Sequence record: KY794643.1
Source of the DNA: Staphylococcus phage vB_Sau_S24
Strand: one strand, 5' to 3'
Length of the DNA: 64,000 bases
Shown: positions 55,808-64,000 of the stretch, in pieces
How the letters are laid out: every line of letters begins with the position of its first letter
How positions within the stretch are numbered: the stretch's first letter is position 1
Program-made: the position numbers and the translations under genes
The notes under the pieces: generated by a model
Database searches by the model: none
Told to the model about the DNA's origin: nothing
The model's input: only the letters and a program-made list of their open reading frames with translations

Positions 55808-55836
55808 AAGAAACCTATTGACATTAGGTTTCTTTT
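55808..55836 (+). terminator. rho-independent terminator with TTGACAT loop
   Basis: AAGAAACCTA / TAGGTTTCTT 10-bp stem plus T4. Confidence 0.55.
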
Positions 55837-55846
55837 ATTATATACT
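55818..55846 (+). promoter_or_regulatory. sigma70-type promoter TTGACA-N17-TATACT; -35 in terminator loop
   Basis: followed by TATACTAAGAGTATAT element. Confidence 0.55.
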
Positions 55847-56927: not shown

Positions 56928-56956
56928 TTGACAGCAGGTATTTATTATAGTATACT
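56928..56956 (+). promoter_or_regulatory. sigma70-type promoter TTGACA-N17-TATACT
   Basis: -35 56928-56933, -10 56951-56956. Confidence 0.5.
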
Positions 56957-56985: not shown

Positions 56986-57189
56986 ATGAATAACAAACAA
57001 ATTGAAAGATTACACAGGAAATCAAATGAGGTAGTAAGTAAATCAGAAGGTATTGAAGACTTAGGTTATGTACAAGCACATAAGATTATTAAGGAGTACC
57101 TTGATTTACCAGTGTCTGATTTTGAAAAGAGAGATGTAATGACTGAATTACTATTAGCGTTAGATAAAGCTAACAAAACATTAGACTAA
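56986..57189 (+). CDS. hypothetical protein (67 aa)
   Basis: SD AAAGGAGAGG; promoter 56928-56956. Confidence 0.4.
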   Translation: MNNKQIERLHRKSNEVVSKSEGIEDLGYVQAHKIIKEYLDLPVSDFEKRDVMTELLLALDKANKTLD

Positions 57190-57222
57190 TTAGGATTTAT
57201 ATTATAAAGGAGGAAATTACAA

Positions 57223-57447
57223 ATGAATTATAAAGAGGTACTAGAAACTATTAAGAAGAATAAACCATGTAAGGTTAGATTTACTGGAAGTATTGTAGCA
57301 ATTGTTAACACAGAATTTAATGCAGACACTGGTAAAGGTGTATTACAGATTGATGTATCAGATATCAATAGAGACGATTACATTAAGCTACAGCAGTATT
57401 GCTTAGAAAGAGACGATTATACTGTAGCAGGTTCTATTTTATTTTAA
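57223..57447 (+). CDS. hypothetical protein (74 aa)
   Basis: SD AAAGGAGGAAA. Confidence 0.4.
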   Translation: MNYKEVLETIKKNKPCKVRFTGSIVAIVNTEFNADTGKGVLQIDVSDINRDDYIKLQQYCLERDDYTVAGSILF

Positions 57448-57467
57448 AAAGGAAAGGAGTTAACACG

Positions 57468-58376
57468 ATGATTAAAGTATTTTCAGAAATTGATACAAAA
57501 TATAAGACGATTGTACCGGAGAAATTCCCTAATGGTGAGATTAATTTTAAATACGATGACTTAGAATATTTAGTAGAAAAAGACCTACGGTTTGATGTTT
57601 TCTTTAAATGGGAAAGTGATGCGGACTTAATGCATTTGTATATGTTTACTAAGTATATAGAACAATTAGGTATTAAAGATAAAGCTGAGTTTTTAGACAT
57701 TGCATACGTACCTTATAGCAGAATGGATAGAGTAGAAGAAGGTCATAGTAATATGTTTAGTCTTAAGTATATTGCAGAGTTTATTAACAATCTTAATTAC
57801 AAATCGGTATGGGTAGCAGAGCCTCATAGCCCTGTAACAGAAGAATTACTTAAAAATTCTTTTGCTGTACATGTTACAATTAAACTATTAAACCAATATA
57901 TTGAAATGTCTGAAGAACCTGTAACAATTGTACTACCTGATAAAGGAGCATATGATAGATACCTATTTGATGTAGAACGTATATTAATAGACTCTAACAT
58001 TGAAAATTATTCAATTGTATATGGTGAAAAGGAACGTGATTTTGAGACAGGTAAGATTAAAGGAATTAAAATAATTACAGATGAAAATACTGTATACGAT
58101 AACTGCATCATCCTAGATGATTTAACAAGTTATGGTGGGACTTTTGTAGGTTGTAAAAAAGCTCTTGACAAACTAGGTGTTAATAGTGTATCATTAATAT
58201 TGACTCATGCAGAGAAAATATTTATGGATGGTAAACTATTTGAATCAGGTTTTAAAGATATCGTTGTAACAGACTCAATGTTATCTGATAGCCCTTGGAC
58301 AAAAGCTGTTGCTACCCATATAGCACAGGTAAATGGAACAGAATTACAAATAAAGGATATCGAAAGATATCTATAA
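57468..58376 (+). CDS. prs: ribose-phosphate pyrophosphokinase (PRPP synthetase)-like protein
   Basis: start ATG 57468 (AAAGGAAAGGAG SD); PRPP-binding loop 'CIILDDLTSYGGTF' (cf. canonical VLIVDDIIDTGGT); approx. 300 aa as Prs. Confidence 0.65.
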   Translation: MIKVFSEIDTKYKTIVPEKFPNGEINFKYDDLEYLVEKDLRFDVFFKWESDADLMHLYMFTKYIEQLGIKDKAEFLDIAYVPYSRMDRVEEGHSNMFSLKYIAEFINNLNYKSVWVAEPHSPVTEELLKNSFAVHVTIKLLNQYIEMSEEPVTIVLPDKGAYDRYLFDVERILIDSNIENYSIVYGEKERDFETGKIKGIKIITDENTVYDNCIILDDLTSYGGTFVGCKKALDKLGVNSVSLILTHAEKIFMDGKLFESGFKDIVVTDSMLSDSPWTKAVATHIAQVNGTELQIKDIERYL

Positions 58377-58393
58377 AAGGAGAAAAATAAACT

Positions 58394-59863
58394 ATGCTAA
58401 ATCCAACATTAATGTGTGACTTCTACAAATTAAGTCACAGAGAACAATATCCTGAAGGTACAGAAATTGTATATAGTACACTTGTACCTAGAAGTAACAA
58501 ATATTATGAACATAGTGATAATATTGTAGTATTTGGTATTCAATCACTTGTTAAAAAGTATTTTATTGATATGTTTAATAGAGAATTTTTTAATAGACCT
58601 AAAAAGGAAGTTATTAACGAATATAAACGTACAGTTAAATTCACATTAGGGCAAGAAAACCCTGACGCTAAACATTTAGAGCAGTTACATGACCTAGGCT
58701 ACTTACCTATTGATGTAAGAGCTTTAAAAGAGGGTACAGTAGTTCACCCTAATACACCTGTTATGACAATAGAAAATACTCACTCAGATTTCTTTTGGCT
58801 AACTAACTACTTAGAAACTATTATTAGTACTCAAACATGGCAAGCAATGACAAGTGCTACACTAGCATATGATATGCGTAAAATGTTAGATAAATATGCA
58901 ATAGAAACGGTAGGTAGTATTGATGCAGTAGATTTCCAAGGACATGACTTTAGTATGCGTGGGATGAGTTCACTAGAAACAGCTCAATTAAGTTCAGCAG
59001 GACATGCAATTAGTTTTAAAGGTAGTGACACTGTACCTGTAGTGGAATTCCTAGAATCTTATTACAATGCAGATGTAGAAAAAGAAATGGTTGTTGCCTC
59101 TATCCCTGCTACTGAGCATTCAGTTATGTGTGCAAACGGTGATTATGAGACAATGGATGAATACGAAACATACAAACGTATGTTAACGGAAATCTATCCA
59201 ACAGGAGTATTCTCTATTGTATCTGATACTTGGGACTTTTGGGGTAATATGACTAAAACTTTACCTAGACTAAAAGATATTATTATGGAAAGAGACGGTA
59301 AAGTAGTAATCAGACCTGATAGTGGAGACCCTGTTAAGATTATCTGCGGTGACCCTGATGCAGATACTGAGCATGAACGTAAAGGTGCTGTAGAAGTACT
59401 TTGGGACACTTTTGGAGGTACAGAAACTGAAAAAGGATATAAAGTACTAGATGAGCATGTAGGGCTAATTTACGGTGATTCTATTAACTATGAGCGTGCT
59501 CAACAAATTTGTGAGGGATTAAAAGAAAAGGGTTTTGCAAGTATTAACGTGGTATTAGGCGTAGGTAGTTTCTCTTATCAATTTAATACTCGTGATACTC
59601 ATGGATTTGCAATCAAAGCAACGTATGCTAAGATTAAAAATGAAGAGAAGCTTATCTATAAGAACCCTAAAACAGATAGCGGTAAACGTTCACACAAAGG
59701 TAGAGTAGCTGTTTACAAAGATGGCTCATGGGAAGATAACCTAAACCTTCACCAGTGGTTAAACAAACAGAATTTAAACCAATTAGAACGAGTATTTGAA
59801 GACGGTAAACTATATCGAGACCAGTCATTAAGTGAAATCAGAGAGATAATTAAAAATAATTAA
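58394..59863 (+). CDS. nadV: nicotinamide phosphoribosyltransferase (NAMPT/NadV)
   Basis: 489 aa; N-terminal 'MLNPTLMCDFYKLSHREQYP' is the conserved NAMPT start; directly downstream of prs-like gene. Confidence 0.85.
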   Translation: MLNPTLMCDFYKLSHREQYPEGTEIVYSTLVPRSNKYYEHSDNIVVFGIQSLVKKYFIDMFNREFFNRPKKEVINEYKRTVKFTLGQENPDAKHLEQLHDLGYLPIDVRALKEGTVVHPNTPVMTIENTHSDFFWLTNYLETIISTQTWQAMTSATLAYDMRKMLDKYAIETVGSIDAVDFQGHDFSMRGMSSLETAQLSSAGHAISFKGSDTVPVVEFLESYYNADVEKEMVVASIPATEHSVMCANGDYETMDEYETYKRMLTEIYPTGVFSIVSDTWDFWGNMTKTLPRLKDIIMERDGKVVIRPDSGDPVKIICGDPDADTEHERKGAVEVLWDTFGGTETEKGYKVLDEHVGLIYGDSINYERAQQICEGLKEKGFASINVVLGVGSFSYQFNTRDTHGFAIKATYAKIKNEEKLIYKNPKTDSGKRSHKGRVAVYKDGSWEDNLNLHQWLNKQNLNQLERVFEDGKLYRDQSLSEIREIIKNN

Positions 59864-59882
59864 TAAATAGTTAAACTCCCTA

Positions 59883-59911
59883 TTGACAAATAGGGGTTTC
59901 TATTATATAAT
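59883..59911 (+). promoter_or_regulatory. sigma70-type promoter TTGACA-N17-TATAAT; -35 in hairpin loop
   Basis: -35 flanked by AAACTCCCTA / TAGGGGTTT inverted repeat. Confidence 0.5.
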
Positions 59912-59941: not shown

Positions 59942-60196
59942 ATGATATACGTTGGAGTAACGGAGAAAGAAAAACTAGTTGCAGGAGACTTAGTAAAATC
60001 AAAAGAAGAAAATAAATGGGGTATAGTAGTAGGAGATAAACAAGACTTAAATGTACTTATTCTAGATGATGAACCTTGGTTGTTTTATAAATCAGGTATT
60101 AAAAGAGTAGAAGGGCAATTAGAGGAGGATTTTAAATTTATTAAAAATAAAAGTGAATATAATATGGATATAGGTGATGGGATTTATTCAGATTAA
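59942..60196 (+). CDS. hypothetical protein (84 aa)
   Basis: SD GAGGAGGG; promoter 59883-59911. Confidence 0.4.
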   Translation: MIYVGVTEKEKLVAGDLVKSKEENKWGIVVGDKQDLNVLILDDEPWLFYKSGIKRVEGQLEEDFKFIKNKSEYNMDIGDGIYSD

Positions 60197-60218
60197 ACTA
60201 AATAGTAAGGATGAGAAT

Positions 60219-60530
60219 ATGAAAAAAGTAATAGTATTACTTACAATCACTTTGTCTTTACTATTAGGAGGTTGCTCTCCTGATAATCATGAAGGTAAAG
60301 TAGTAGGTGTAGGTGAGTATAGAGAACCAACTACTTTTATAAAATCAGGGAATGTCACTGTACCGGTCATTGGTGAAATGAGATACTATGTAGACTTAGA
60401 GACAGATAAAGGAGAAGACCGTGTATACCTTAATAGGAAGGTTTATCATAAGTTTGATAAAGGTGATGATTTCTCTAATGTAGGTGGGAAAGTGTATAGG
60501 AATGATGAATTAATTTATAAAGAAGAATAA
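60219..60530 (+). CDS. lipoprotein
   Basis: start ATG 60219; signal peptide plus lipobox 'LSLLLGGCSPD'. Confidence 0.5.
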   Translation: MKKVIVLLTITLSLLLGGCSPDNHEGKVVGVGEYREPTTFIKSGNVTVPVIGEMRYYVDLETDKGEDRVYLNRKVYHKFDKGDDFSNVGGKVYRNDELIYKEE

Positions 60531-61840: not shown

Positions 61841-61865
61841 CATTAAATAAATAACGTGTTAAGAT
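61837..61865 (+). promoter_or_regulatory. sigma70-type promoter TTGACA-N17-TGtTAAGAT upstream of Pnkp-like gene
   Basis: perfect -35, weaker extended -10. Confidence 0.4.
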
Positions 61866-61897
61866 TAATATATAATCAATTAAGGAGGAAAGTTAAC

Positions 61898-64000
61898 ATG
61901 AAACAATTAGTATTAATGAGAGGGGTGCCGGGAGCCGGAAAGTCTACTTTTATTAAAGAGAATGGGTTAGAACCTTACACTCTCTCCCCTGATGAACTTA
62001 GAACAATGCATACAAGCCCTATATATAATGAGCAAGGAATGAAAGTTATATCTCAGAAACACGATAATAAAGTTTGGGATAACCTAATGGAAATTCTTGA
62101 AGAAAGAATGATTAATGGGGATTTTACTGTTATTGATGCTACGCACTCTACAGGAAAATTAATTAAAAAATATGAGACACTAGCTCGTAAATATCGTTAT
62201 CGTACTTATGTAGTAACTATTGAGCAAGATTTAGACACATTAATTGAACGTAATAACCAAAGAAAAGAGTTAAAAAAGGTTCCTGAAGAAGTAATTTACA
62301 ATATTTATGAAAGGTTACAACATGAACATATCCCTAGTTATGCTACAGAAATTAGCTCAGATGAATTAATGGATAAGATTAAATGGAAAAAAGATTCCTT
62401 TGATGCCGATAATTATGATAAAATCCATGTTATTGGGGACGTTCATTCATGTTTTACAGTAATTAATCAGTTTGCAAGTTATCAAAAAATTATTGATAAT
62501 CCAAATGAGTTATTTATCTTTGTCGGGGACTACTTTGATAGAGGTTTAGAGACTAAAGAGGTGTTTGATTACTTAGAACTAATTTATAAACAACCTAATG
62601 TAGTGTTGTTGGAAGGTAATCATGAGAGACACTTAAGACGATATGCCTTTTTAGATGAGGAAGATTATTTAAGTTTAGATTGTACAGATAAAGATTTCTA
62701 TGATACTGCAATGAAATTATTCCATGCAAGAGGTTTTATTCCTACGCTTAAAGAATTCATGACATATGGAATTACTCAAAAACAAGTAAGACGTATTGTT
62801 CATAAATTACAGCAAATAGTATACTTCAATTATAAAGGGCAATACTATATGATTAATCATGGTGGTATCTTACCTAATATGTTAGATGACATTAACTTAG
62901 TATCAACTCACCAAATCATTAATGGCGTAGGTGGGTATGAATATCAAATTGATGAGCAATGGGATGACTCAGATGTTATTCAGATTCACGGTCACAGAAA
63001 TCTTTATAGGGAGCCTTTAGATGTAACAAAACAATCTATTAATTTAGAGGGAAGAGTTGAAAAAGGAGGTTCTTTAAGAGCTGTAACGATTAATGAAGAC
63101 AATACTTTAACGCCTTATGAAATTAAAAACGAAGTATATGATTCTAAATTTTTATTAAACAATGACTATACAGAAGATATTGACCCTAATCTAACAGTTG
63201 AAGATTATTTAAAACTAGCAAAAGAAGACCCCTATATTAAAGTCGTACCTCAATATGATAATGTAGTATCTGTAAACTTTACTAGAAAGGCTTTTAGCAG
63301 AAAGCATTGGAACCAATTATCTGTTACTGCTAGAGGATTATTTATTGATGAGAGTACAAATAAAATTGTTGGTAGAGGGTATAATAAATTCTTTAATATT
63401 AATGAAAGACCTGAAACAAAATTAGAAAATCTACCTGATACTTTAGAATTCCCTGTATATGCTTCATTAAAATATAATGGATTCTTGGGGTTAATGTTCT
63501 ATGACAATAATCGTGATGAACTAATTTACGCTAGCAAATCGAAAACACATTTATCACAACATGATAATTCTTTTGCTCTATTATTTAAAGAAATTGTTGA
63601 AGAAACATGGACTACTGAACAAATTAAAAATACAAAAAAATATTTAAAAGAAACAAATAAAACACTTTTATTTGAAGTAATAGATAATATTAATGACCCT
63701 CATATTATTGATGATGGAGATAAAAGAAGAGTAGTATTATTAGATGCTGTTGACAACACGCTTAAATTTAATAAACTAGTTGGAGAAGAGCTCATTTATC
63801 TTGCAGTAAATGTGATTGGTATTGATAAAAATGTATCCACTTCTAATTTCTCTTTCTCTAATTGGAATGACTTATTTACTTTTTACCAAGACTTAGAAAA
63901 AGATAATTCTTTTGCAATAGAAGGGTTTGTGTTAGAAGACTCTAATGGGTTCATGTTAAAATATAAAACACCATATTACAATAATTGGAAATATATGAGA
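61898..64000 (+). CDS. Pnkp-like polynucleotide 5'-kinase / metallophosphatase / ligase-like trifunctional RNA-repair protein (5' partial, runs off window)
   Basis: own translation of frame from ATG 61898 (AAGGAGGAAAG SD) is open to position 64000: P-loop 'GVPGAGKST' and 'VIDATH'; then 'IHVIGDVHSC', 'GDYFDRG', 'LEGNHE', 'NHGG', 'IHGHRN' calcineurin-type phosphatase motifs; then 'SLKYNGF' (KxNG nucleotidyltransferase motif I) and 'EGFVLE', 'LKYK' ligase-like motifs. Confidence 0.65.
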   Translation, partial: MKQLVLMRGVPGAGKSTFIKENGLEPYTLSPDELRTMHTSPIYNEQGMKVISQKHDNKVWDNLMEILEERMINGDFTVIDATHSTGKLIKKYETLARKYRYRTYVVTIEQDLDTLIERNNQRKELKKVPEEVIYNIYERLQHEHIPSYATEISSDELMDKIKWKKDSFDADNYDKIHVIGDVHSCFTVINQFASYQKIIDNPNELFIFVGDYFDRGLETKEVFDYLELIYKQPNVVLLEGNHERHLRRYAFLDEEDYLSLDCTDKDFYDTAMKLFHARGFIPTLKEFMTYGITQKQVRRIVHKLQQIVYFNYKGQYYMINHGGILPNMLDDINLVSTHQIINGVGGYEYQIDEQWDDSDVIQIHGHRNLYREPLDVTKQSINLEGRVEKGGSLRAVTINEDNTLTPYEIKNEVYDSKFLLNNDYTEDIDPNLTVEDYLKLAKEDPYIKVVPQYDNVVSVNFTRKAFSRKHWNQLSVTARGLFIDESTNKIVGRGYNKFFNINERPETKLENLPDTLEFPVYASLKYNGFLGLMFYDNNRDELIYASKSKTHLSQHDNSFALLFKEIVEETWTTEQIKNTKKYLKETNKTLLFEVIDNINDPHIIDDGDKRRVVLLDAVDNTLKFNKLVGEELIYLAVNVIGIDKNVSTSNFSFSNWNDLFTFYQDLEKDNSFAIEGFVLEDSNGFMLKYKTPYYNNWKYMR

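What the first reader, a model, noticed from the sequence alone, without database searches (positions are those of the whole stretch)
57468..59863. Prs-like PRPP synthetase plus NadV (NAMPT) pair with no NMN adenylyltransferase in sight
Two adjacent genes encode a PRPP synthetase-like protein (PRPP-binding loop CIILDDLTSYGGTF) and an unmistakable NAMPT (MLNPTLMCDFYKLSHREQYP). Together they convert nicotinamide plus ribose-5-P/ATP into NMN. This is the first half of an NAD+ reconstitution route of the kind phages use to survive NAD+-depleting defences (Thoeris, DSR/SIR2, SEFIR and similar). The flanking genes are all small (at most 118 aa) and none looks like an NMNAT or Nudix. So either the host NMNAT completes the pathway or an unrecognised phage protein does.
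Basis: partly seen in the sequence, partly recalled or inferred. Interest (0 to 1): 0.55.

Follow-up and report, generated by a model that had tools for sequence, protein, structure and literature searches.

The report
Known phage NAD+ rebuilding pair (NARP1)

Summary
The two genes are real and lie exactly where the finding says: 57468-58376 (302 aa, Prs-like) and 58394-59863 (489 aa, NAMPT-like). They sit 17 nt apart on the + strand of a Twortvirinae Staphylococcus phage that is 98.8% identical to vB_Sau_Clo6.

They are most likely not a PRPP synthetase plus NAMPT making NMN. They match NARP1 (Osterman et al. 2024). In NARP1, Adps pyrophosphorylates ADP-ribose to ADPR-PP, and Namat joins ADPR-PP to nicotinamide to give NAD+ directly.

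- **NAMPT-like protein:** it scores 662 bits to the crystal structure of SPbetaL1 Namat, against about 228 bits to true NAMPTs. It carries the full published Namat signature, GSFSYQFNTRD.
- **Prs-like protein:** it falls below every curated Prs cut-off. It is 38% identical to the biochemically proven SPbetaL1 Adps, against 25% to E. coli Prs, and it keeps the catalytic lysine (K188).
- **Prior listing:** its exact sequence is already in the discovery preprint's supplementary table, flagged as Namat-linked.
- **No extra partner:** no NMNAT, Nudix or Macro domain is present in the 64-kb window, as expected for plain two-gene NARP1.

The activity and the anti-defence role are inferred by homology. 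I found no experiment on a Staphylococcus phage. Verdict: real, functional and ordinary; already known.

The parts
56928..56956 (+). Sigma-70-like promoter (TTGACA-17-TATACT). It is the likely start of the transcription unit that contains the pair. This is inferred only.
   Evidence: Consensus scan, 11 of 12 matches. The region as a whole has no more such sites than its shuffles, so this site is only suggestive.
56986..57189 (+). Small ORF of 67 aa with unknown function, probably co-transcribed upstream of adps. There is no evidence that it belongs to the pathway.
   Evidence: ORF list. Hits phrog_7235 (unknown function) and has no Pfam hit. In Kayvirus P108 four additional small ORFs lie among and after these two ORFs upstream of adps, so the linkage is loose.
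57223..57447 (+). Small ORF of 74 aa with unknown function, immediately upstream of adps.
   Evidence: ORF list. Hits phrog_7618 (unknown function); only chance-level Pfam hits.
57453..57459 (+). Shine-Dalgarno sequence AAAGGAG, 8 nt before the adps ATG.
   Evidence: Read directly from the sequence. It supports ATG 57468 over the upstream TTG at 57399. Clo6 is annotated with the same start, and the SPbetaL1 and FADO homologues also begin with MI(K/L).
57468..58376 (+). adps: ADP-ribose pyrophosphokinase (ADPR-PP synthetase), 302 aa, PRPS-like fold. Key residues are F20, R85, H120, D158, catalytic K188, D217, D218 and the PP loop T220-F226 (TSYGGTF).
   Evidence: 38% identity and 145 bits to SPbetaL1 Adps, against 25% and 41 bits to E. 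coli Prs. 187.7 bits to an HMM built from three experimentally supported Adps, against 77-95 bits for canonical Prs; 26.9 bits to a Prs HMM. Below all curated NCBIfam Prs cut-offs. Residue mapping. Identical to KY794642_00110 in Osterman Supplementary Table 1.
58377..58382 (+). Shine-Dalgarno sequence AAGGAG for namat, starting directly after the adps stop codon.
   Evidence: Read directly from the sequence.
58394..59863 (+). namat: nicotinamide ADP-ribose transferase, 489 aa, NAMPT-like. Features are the clamp loop S34-N35-K36-Y37, the ATEHS catalytic-His motif at 239, RPDSGDP at 307, and the clamp-helix signature GSFSYQFNTRD at 391-401.
   Evidence: 662 bits to PDB 9W5X/9W5W (SPbetaL1 Namat), against about 228 bits to mammalian NAMPT. 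Motif positions; the published rule is in PMC12774641 section 23. The Clo6 orthologue is labelled 'Adps-associated' in Osterman Supplementary Table 2.
59877..59906 (+). Terminator-like hairpin (TCCCTATTGACAAATAGGGG followed by a T-rich tail) that closes the unit. It overlaps a perfect TTGACA-17-TATAAT promoter (59883-59911) for the next gene.
   Evidence: Consensus scan and sequence.

Best explanation
The pair is a two-gene NAD+ reconstitution pathway 1 (NARP1) module of a Twortvirinae Staphylococcus phage. When a host defence NADase cleaves NAD+ into ADP-ribose and nicotinamide, the first enzyme (Adps, 57468-58376) uses ATP to transfer a pyrophosphate onto the 1'' position of the distal ribose of ADPR, giving ADPR-PP and AMP. 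The second enzyme (Namat, 58394-59863) displaces that pyrophosphate with nicotinamide and regenerates NAD+ in one step. No NMN intermediate and no NMN adenylyltransferase are involved. Shown here: the gene anatomy, homology to the experimentally characterised enzymes, conservation of their catalytic and specificity residues, purifying selection, and prior listing of the exact protein. Inferred: the actual substrates of these two particular proteins, and that the benefit in staphylococci is escape from NAD+-depleting defences.
For: 1. Namat. phmmer gives 662 bits (E 3.5e-198) to 9W5X/9W5W. The depositing paper identifies these entries as SPbetaL1 Namat bound to nicotinamide and to NAD+. True NAMPTs score about 228 bits. 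2. The published Namat-specific signature GS-X-phi1-X-phi2-X-phi3-TRD (X aromatic) reads GSFSYQFNTRD at 391-401. Human and rodent NAMPT have G, L and K at the three X positions. The clamp loop has Lys at its third position followed by Tyr, one of the published stacking configurations. The catalytic core (ATEHS; RPDSGDP, with the Arg equivalent to R306) is intact. 3. Adps. It is 38% identical (145 bits) to SPbetaL1 Adps, the enzyme shown in vitro to make ADPR-PP, against 25% (41 bits) to E. coli Prs. A profile built from SPbetaL1, FADO and ICP1 Adps scores it at 187.7 bits and canonical Prs at 77-95 bits. A canonical Prs profile scores it at 26.9 bits, in the same range as the verified Adps (47-54 bits). 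It misses every curated Prs cut-off (TIGR01251: 78.1 against 113), as SPbetaL1 Adps does (106). 4. K188 aligns with SPbetaL1 K162 and ICP1 K185; mutating either of those to alanine inactivates the enzyme. The PP loop TSYGGTF matches SPbetaL1 SSFGGTF rather than the Prs loop IDTGGTL. 5. The genes are adjacent and probably co-transcribed. In the discovery study 97% of Adps-clade genes had a Namat nearby. PHROG 12872 is a 547-position family that matches both proteins end to end, which suggests natural Adps-Namat fusions. 6. The 302-aa protein is identical to KY794642_00110 in Osterman Supplementary Table 1 ('Namat within 10 genes: Yes'). The Clo6 partner is labelled 'Adps-associated' in Supplementary Table 2. 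7. Both genes are under purifying selection against Kayvirus P108 (dN/dS 0.21 and 0.03). They are found in about 196 Staphylococcus phage records.
Against: No biochemical or genetic experiment on any Staphylococcus phage NARP1 was found in the searchable literature, so substrate use rests on homology at 38% (Adps) and about 68% (Namat) identity. One ADPR-adenine contact of ICP1 Adps (F92) is not conserved (E90 here), although it is also absent from the biochemically verified SPbetaL1 enzyme. Most conserved acceptor-site residues are shared with true Prs and do not discriminate between the two. SPbetaL1 Namat retains PRPP-to-NMN activity in vitro, so some NMN synthesis cannot be excluded. PDB 9KE8, a close relative at 528 bits, lacks two of the three aromatic clamp residues. 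Overall similarity alone is therefore not decisive.
Confidence: 0.9

Rival explanations
1. The first protein is a true PRPP synthetase and the second a true NAMPT. Together they make NMN, and a host or unrecognised phage NMN adenylyltransferase finishes NAD+ synthesis (a NARP2-like or salvage route).
For: Both proteins belong to the Prs and NAMPT superfamilies, and public records name them accordingly. SPbetaL1 Namat can make NMN from PRPP in vitro at about half the rate of human NAMPT.
Against: The Prs-like protein fails all curated Prs thresholds and groups with verified Adps. SPbetaL1 Adps gave no Prs-type product. The NAMPT-like protein carries the full ADPR-PP selectivity clamp and falls in the 'Adps-associated' class, not the 'Nmnat-associated' class. 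No NMNAT or Nudix domain exists in the 64-kb window. For Bas63, the host NMN routes were dispensable. From general knowledge, not tested here: Gram-positive NadD strongly prefers NaMN over NMN, which makes host completion inefficient.
Confidence: 0.05
2. The enzymes have NARP1 chemistry, but their main role in staphylococcal infection is general NAD+ homeostasis: recycling ADPR from any source to support phage replication. Counter-defence would be secondary.
For: The pair is present in about 196 Staphylococcus phage records, and Namat is very tightly conserved (dN/dS 0.03). That pattern fits a constant need rather than an occasional one. No staphylococcal NAD+-depleting defence was examined here.
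Against: In the model systems NARP1 raised NAD+ only when a defence NADase supplied ADPR, and the ADPR-PP intermediate was seen only with the defence present. The discovery study found that sequences in the Adps clade occur almost exclusively in phage genomes, and argued from this for a counter-defence role.
Confidence: 0.1
3. The genes are decaying or inactive remnants with no current function.
For: None found.
Against: Both ORFs are intact with good ribosome-binding sites. All catalytic residues are conserved. Both are under purifying selection.
Confidence: 0.01

Closest known systems
NARP1 of Bacillus phage SPbetaL1 (genes 190 and 191; Adps plus Namat; Osterman et al. 2024; Namat structures 9W5X/9W5W)
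   Same: Same two-gene order, with adps directly upstream of namat. Adps is 38% identical, with the same PP-loop type (S/T-S-aromatic-GGTF) and the same catalytic Lys. Namat scores 662 bits, with the same clamp-helix signature and the same catalytic Arg and His.
   Different: The host is Staphylococcus and the phage is a Twortvirinae myophage rather than an SPbeta-like temperate phage. The clamp loop uses Lys-Tyr instead of Arg40. Adps is 30 aa longer, mainly at the N-terminal region, around residues 165-185 and at the C-terminus. These particular proteins have no experimental data.
Vibrio phage ICP1 Adps (UniProt F1D1Q1; structures described in PMC13586617)
   Same: PRPS-like protein next to a Namat. 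F18, R87, H121, D161, K185, D212 and D213 are all conserved, as F20, R85, H120, D158, K188, D217 and D218.
   Different: Only about 23-27% identical. The ICP1 PP loop is CDGAASF against TSYGGTF here, and ICP1 F92 is E90 here.
NARP2 of Vibrio phage KVP40 (Nampt plus bifunctional Nmnat/Nudix)
   Same: Also a phage NAD+ restoring route that uses a NAMPT-family enzyme and nicotinamide.
   Different: NARP2 uses PRPP, passes through NMN and needs an Nmnat. The window has no Nmnat or Nudix domain, has an Adps partner instead, and its NAMPT-like enzyme carries the ADPR-PP clamp.
NARP1-AP (Adps, Macro-domain phosphatase Adpp and Namat; Vibrio phage Gary)
   Same: The same Adps and Namat core.
   Different: No Macro-domain gene lies in or near the unit, nor anywhere in the window. 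This phage would therefore be predicted to be sensitive to aRES-type defences that produce ADPR-1''-phosphate.
Canonical ribose-phosphate pyrophosphokinase (Prs; TIGR01251) and NAMPT (human, PDB 2GVG and others)
   Same: Same folds and the same core phosphoribosyl chemistry. The Prs catalytic-loop Lys and the NAMPT His and Arg are conserved.
   Different: 78 bits against a cut-off of 113 for Prs (E. coli Prs scores 423). NAMPT has G, L and K where this protein has F, Y and F in the adenine clamp.

Membership tests
NARP1 Adps (ADPR-PP synthetase) | A PRPS-like protein that falls outside canonical Prs and groups with experimentally supported Adps. | tested here: met
   Below all NCBIfam Prs cut-offs (78.1 against 113), as SPbetaL1 Adps is. 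Adps-seed HMM: 187.7 bits, against 77-95 for Prs. Prs HMM: 26.9 bits. BLASTP: 145 bits to SPbetaL1 Adps, against 41 bits to E. coli Prs. The canonical Prs set used was gammaproteobacterial only.
NARP1 Adps (ADPR-PP synthetase) | Catalytic lysine on the beta-hairpin (SPbetaL1 K162, ICP1 K185). | tested here: met
   K188 aligns with both.
NARP1 Adps (ADPR-PP synthetase) | Remodelled PP loop used for donor ATP binding. | tested here: inconclusive
   The window has TSYGGTF, the same type as the verified SPbetaL1 loop SSFGGTF. It differs both from the Prs loop IDTGGTL and from the structurally characterised ICP1 loop CDGAASF. The published alignment of Adps PP loops (Fig. 3E) could not be inspected.
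NARP1 Adps (ADPR-PP synthetase) | ADPR acceptor-groove residues (ICP1 F18, R87, F92, H121, D161, D212, D213). | tested here: inconclusive
   Six of seven are conserved (F20, R85, H120, D158, D217, D218). The F92 equivalent is E90, as in SPbetaL1. The six conserved residues are also present in E. coli Prs, so they do not discriminate.
NARP1 Adps (ADPR-PP synthetase) | A namat gene in the immediate neighbourhood (97% of the clade). | tested here: met
   namat starts 17 nt after the adps stop codon. The identical protein is flagged 'Yes' in Osterman Supplementary Table 1.
NARP1 Adps (ADPR-PP synthetase) | Converts ADPR plus ATP to ADPR-PP and does not act as a Prs. | not testable with these tools
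   This needs purified protein and LC-MS.
NARP1 Namat (nicotinamide ADPR-transferase) | NAMPT-like catalytic core (catalytic His; Arg equivalent to SPbetaL1 R306). | tested here: met
   ATEHS at 239 and RPDSGDP at 307, aligned to 9W5X.
NARP1 Namat (nicotinamide ADPR-transferase) | Clamp-helix signature GS-X-phi1-X-phi2-X-phi3-TRD with aromatic X. | tested here: met
   GSFSYQFNTRD at 391-401. The rule comes from PMC12774641. Negative controls are mammalian NAMPT (G, L, K) and 9KE8 (Q, Y, R).
NARP1 Namat (nicotinamide ADPR-transferase) | Clamp loop whose third residue is Arg, Lys or Tyr, providing or preceding a stacking residue. | tested here: met
   S34-N35-K36-Y37 aligns with SPbetaL1 T38-S39-R40-V41. 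The paper states that with Lys at the third position the fourth residue does the stacking.
NARP1 Namat (nicotinamide ADPR-transferase) | Membership of the Adps-associated clade rather than the Nmnat-associated clade. | tested here: met
   The Clo6 orthologue (304 of 309 identical N-terminal residues) and phage G1 are labelled 'Adps-associated'. No tree was built here.
NARP1 Namat (nicotinamide ADPR-transferase) | Prefers ADPR-PP over PRPP and yields NAD+. | not testable with these tools
   This needs an enzyme competition assay.
NARP2 (Nampt plus Nmnat) | An NMN adenylyltransferase (with or without Nudix) encoded by the phage. | tested here: not met
   No CTP_transf_like or NUDIX hit in any + strand ORF of at least 90 aa in the window, nor in the small flanking ORFs. 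Only 64 kb of a genome of about 140 kb was scanned. Osterman's genome-wide label for Clo6 is 'Adps-associated'.
NARP1-AP (extended NARP1) | Macro-domain ADPR-1''-phosphate phosphatase (Adpp) in the operon. | tested here: not met
   No Macro hit in the flanking ORFs at E<=1, nor in the rest of the window at E<=0.001.
Canonical Prs (ribose-phosphate diphosphokinase) | Reaches the curated family score (TIGR01251 or the PRK models; Pfam Pribosyltran_N or Pribosyl_synth). | tested here: not met
   78.1 bits against a cut-off of 113; E. coli Prs scores 422.7. No Pfam hit at E<=0.01.

The most novel reading that the evidence does not exclude
The Staphylococcus-phage version may be more than the plain two-gene NARP1. 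One or both of the small ORFs of unknown function that appear to be co-transcribed (56986-57189 and 57223-57447) could be accessory parts, for example an NADase inhibitor or a supplier of ADPR. Alternatively, the Lys-Tyr clamp variant of Namat could keep a physiologically relevant PRPP-to-NMN activity, giving the phage a dual-substrate enzyme.
Probability: 0.05. Interest if true: 0.4.

Novelty: already known. Interest (0 to 1): 0.12.

Why it matters
It matters mainly as a correction of annotation. About 196 Staphylococcus phage records, including therapeutic Kayvirus-type phages, hold homologues of both genes; the records examined label them 'ribose-phosphate pyrophosphokinase' and 'nicotinamide phosphoribosyltransferase', or leave them hypothetical or unannotated. 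The sequence evidence says they are an Adps/Namat counter-defence module. That predicts these phages can resist Thoeris, SIR2-HerA, DSR and SEFIR-type NAD+ depletion. Because they lack the Adpp phosphatase, it also predicts sensitivity to aRES-type defences. Both predictions bear on choosing or engineering phages for therapy. It opens no new biological question, because the pathway, its structures and its distribution are published.

Tried and rejected
1. I searched for an NMNAT, Nudix, Macro, RyR, PnuC or NadR partner. Pfam scans covered the ten nearest ORFs at E<=1 and all other + strand ORFs of at least 90 aa at E<=0.001. Nothing was found. PHROG hits for the flanking ORFs are all 'unknown function'.

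2. I looked for a solved Adps structure in the PDB copy. None is present; the best hit is Sulfolobus Prs 4TWB at 66 bits. No structure-based test of the Adps was attempted, and I judged structure prediction unnecessary.

3. I used the single genome-contig scan to collect diverse canonical Prs sequences. It returned only gammaproteobacterial Prs at 80-99% identity. These served as a Prs profile but not for a broad tree, so no phylogeny was built.

4. I guessed the Bas63 accession. MZ501108 turned out to be Bas27, so Bas63 was not included.

5. I looked for experiments on Kayvirus NARP1, or for expression timing, in two phage K transcriptome papers. Neither mentions these genes.

6. I tried to identify PDB 9KE8. 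No paper was found, and it is less than 60% identical to any phage record.

7. I considered NARP3 (PnuC plus NadR). It is unrelated to these genes.

8. A Pfam scan of the Clo6 Namat insertion found no Hint or intein family at E<=0.001. The intein reading rests only on the junction residues.
Full report
**What is there**

The window is part of a Staphylococcus myophage of the subfamily Twortvirinae. The 3.3 kb around the finding is 98.8% identical to phage vB_Sau_Clo6 and 90-97% identical to many Kayvirus-type phages. All genes in this part of the window are on the + strand.

One runs 57468-58376 (302 aa) and the other 58394-59863 (489 aa), and each follows a good Shine-Dalgarno sequence. They are separated by 17 nt.

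A promoter-like site at 56928-56956 lies upstream, and a hairpin followed by a T-run at 59877-59906 lies downstream. Together they bracket a probable four-gene unit: two small ORFs of unknown function, then the pair. These signals are consensus matches only.

**Check of the observation**

The quoted peptides are present. The second protein is clearly of the NAMPT family: Pfam NAPRTase 3.6e-46, NAMPT_N 9.2e-10, and NCBIfam PRK09198 at 562 bits.

The first protein is Prs-related but weakly so. It has no Pfam hit at E<=0.01. It scores 78 bits to TIGR01251 against a curated cut-off of 113, where E. coli Prs scores 423. Its best solved relative is an archaeal Prs at 66 bits.

No NMNAT, Nudix, Macro, RyR, PnuC or NadR domain appears in the ten flanking ORFs at E<=1. 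None appears in any other + strand ORF of at least 90 aa in the 64-kb window at E<=0.001. The only inaccuracy is that not all flanking ORFs are 118 aa or shorter.

**What it is**

The combination 'Prs-like gene directly upstream of a NAMPT-like gene in a phage, with no NMNAT' is the starting point of Osterman et al. [quoted passage not shown] They expected NMN as the product. Instead they found the following:
- The operon of phage Bas63 still overcame SIR2-HerA in an E. coli pncC nadR double mutant.
- The purified Prs-like enzyme of phage SPbetaL1 gave no product in the control for Prs activity, but converted ADPR plus ATP to ADPR-pyrophosphate.
- The NAMPT-like enzyme converted ADPR-PP plus nicotinamide directly to NAD+, and preferred ADPR-PP when PRPP was also offered.

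They named the enzymes Adps and Namat, and the pathway NARP1.

**Evidence for Namat**

The closest solved structures, at 662 bits (E 3.5e-198), are 9W5X and 9W5W. The depositing paper identifies them as SPbetaL1 Namat with nicotinamide and with NAD+. Mammalian NAMPTs score about 228 bits.

That paper defines what separates Namat from Nampt: an adenine 'selectivity clamp' with two elements.
- **Helix signature:** GS-X-phi1-X-phi2-X-phi3-TRD, where the X positions are aromatic. The window protein reads GSFSYQFNTRD at 391-401, a complete match.
- **Variable loop:** the third residue is Arg, Lys or Tyr, and when it is Lys or Tyr the next residue stacks on the adenine. The window's loop is S34-N35-K36-Y37.

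In the same alignment, human and rodent NAMPT have G, L and K at the three aromatic positions. These include the substitutions (F392G, Y396K) that the authors used to weaken ADPR-PP use. The catalytic core is intact: ATEHS at 239 and RPDSGDP at 307, whose Arg corresponds to R306.

**Evidence for Adps**

I fetched the experimentally supported Adps genes: SPbetaL1 gene 190 (in vitro activity), FADO (operon deleted by Osterman et al.) and ICP1 (structures and kinetics, PMC13586617), along with E. coli prs.
- **Pairwise comparison:** the window protein is 38% identical (145 bits, E 1e-46) to SPbetaL1 Adps, and 25% (41 bits) to E. coli Prs.
- **Adps profile:** a profile built from the three Adps scores the window protein at 187.7 bits, and twelve canonical Prs at 77-95 bits.
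- **Prs profile:** a canonical Prs profile scores it at 26.9 bits, in the range of the verified Adps (47-54 bits) and far from Prs (about 650-680 bits).
- **Catalytic lysine:** K188 aligns with SPbetaL1 K162 and ICP1 K185. Mutating either to alanine kills activity.
- **Acceptor residues:** the ICP1 residues F18, R87, H121, D161, D212 and D213 are conserved, although they are also conserved in Prs.
- **PP loop:** TSYGGTF here is of the SPbetaL1 type (SSFGGTF). It differs from the Prs loop IDTGGTL and from the ICP1 loop CDGAASF.
- **Non-conserved contact:** ICP1 F92 is not conserved here, nor in SPbetaL1.

**Prior listing and conservation**

The 302-aa sequence is identical, residue for residue, to KY794642_00110 in Osterman's Supplementary Table 1. 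[quoted passage not shown] The neighbouring Clo6 protein and the phage G1 orthologue are labelled 'Adps-associated' in Supplementary Table 2.

PHROG 12872, a 547-position family, matches the Adps-like protein over its N-terminal part and the Namat-like protein over its C-terminal part. This suggests that fused Adps-Namat proteins exist.

Against Kayvirus P108, the dN/dS ratio is 0.21 for adps and 0.03 for namat. The pair stays adjacent there while the surrounding small ORFs differ. Homologues of both genes occur in about 196 Staphylococcus phage records.

**How it most likely works**

A host defence NADase splits NAD+ into ADPR and nicotinamide. Adps then transfers the beta-gamma pyrophosphate of ATP onto the distal ribose of ADPR. 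Namat replaces that pyrophosphate with nicotinamide, restoring NAD+.

This explains why no adenylyltransferase is present: the AMP moiety is never removed. The variant here is the plain two-gene form. It lacks the Macro-domain phosphatase Adpp of NARP1-AP. It is unrelated to NARP2 (Nampt plus Nmnat) and to NARP3 (PnuC plus NadR).

Shown here are the anatomy, the homology, the diagnostic residues, the selection and the prior cataloguing. Inferred are the substrates of these particular proteins and the benefit in staphylococci. I found no experiment on a Staphylococcus phage.

**Rival explanations**

It cannot be excluded as a side activity, because SPbetaL1 Namat keeps PRPP activity in vitro.

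A housekeeping NAD+ recycling role is compatible with the chemistry but not with the published dependence on defence-generated ADPR. Gene decay is excluded by the intact ORFs and the purifying selection.

One caution remains. PDB 9KE8 is of unknown origin and is not from any phage in the collection. It is the second-closest structure at 528 bits but lacks two of the three clamp aromatics. The motif, rather than overall similarity, therefore carries the specificity argument.

**Verdict**

The feature is real and almost certainly functional, but it is a known system whose exact sequence is already tabulated in the discovery preprint. Interest is low. The practical value is a corrected annotation for Staphylococcus therapeutic-type phages, plus the prediction that they resist ADPR-producing NADase defences but not aRES.

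Noticed in passing
L004:7395-9785 (vB_Sau_Clo6 namat); the corresponding site in the window is about 59318-59321, between codons D309 and S310: The Clo6 orthologue of namat is 796 aa. A 307-aa in-frame insertion sits between RPD and SGDP in the catalytic-core motif. It begins with Cys and ends ...VCGN, followed by Ser, which looks like an intein. The window's copy lacks it. Pfam found no Hint or intein family at E<=0.001.
   Followed up: partly
window 57468-59863 against PHROG 12872: A single 547-position PHROG family matches the Adps-like protein (profile positions 17-224) and the Namat-like protein (profile positions 373-534). This implies that some phages encode a fused Adps-Namat protein.
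   Followed up: no
PDB 9KE8/9KEO against window 58394-59863: The second-closest solved structure (528 bits) has GAQTYQRNTRD where Namat has GS-aromatic-x-aromatic-x-aromatic-x-TRD. Its source organism and publication could not be found. It is less than 60% identical to every phage record searched.
   Followed up: partly
window 57468-58376 and 58394-59863 against L006 (Kayvirus P108): The two partners evolve at very different rates. Adps is 84% identical at the amino-acid level (dN/dS 0.21) and Namat is 98% identical (dN/dS 0.03), although the genes are adjacent.
   Followed up: partly
window 56986-57447 and 59942-60530 against L006:287-1794 and L006:4265-5425: The small ORFs around the pair are a variable cassette. 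P108 has four extra small ORFs upstream of adps and at least two extra downstream of namat. Clo6 and the window have fewer. All are of unknown function.
   Followed up: no
window 59877-59911: A terminator-like hairpin contains the -35 box of a perfect TTGACA-17-TATAAT promoter in its loop and descending arm. The end of one transcription unit and the start of the next therefore overlap. A similar hairpin-plus-promoter arrangement occurs at 55808-55846.
   Followed up: no
window 61856-64000 (ORF runs off the end of the window): A long open ORF of more than 715 aa. Clo6 annotates a 757-aa 'RNA ligase' at the equivalent place, about twice the length of T4 Rnl1-type ligases. The set of ORFs that includes it gave Pfam hits to RNA_lig_T4_1 and to AAA_33/KTI12-type kinase domains.
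   Followed up: no
one search hit table (Felixounavirus-type, Listeria and other phages): In many phages the Namat match comes as two tblastn pieces spanning about 1730 nt instead of about 1470 nt. This suggests recurrent insertions within namat in unrelated phage groups.
   Followed up: no
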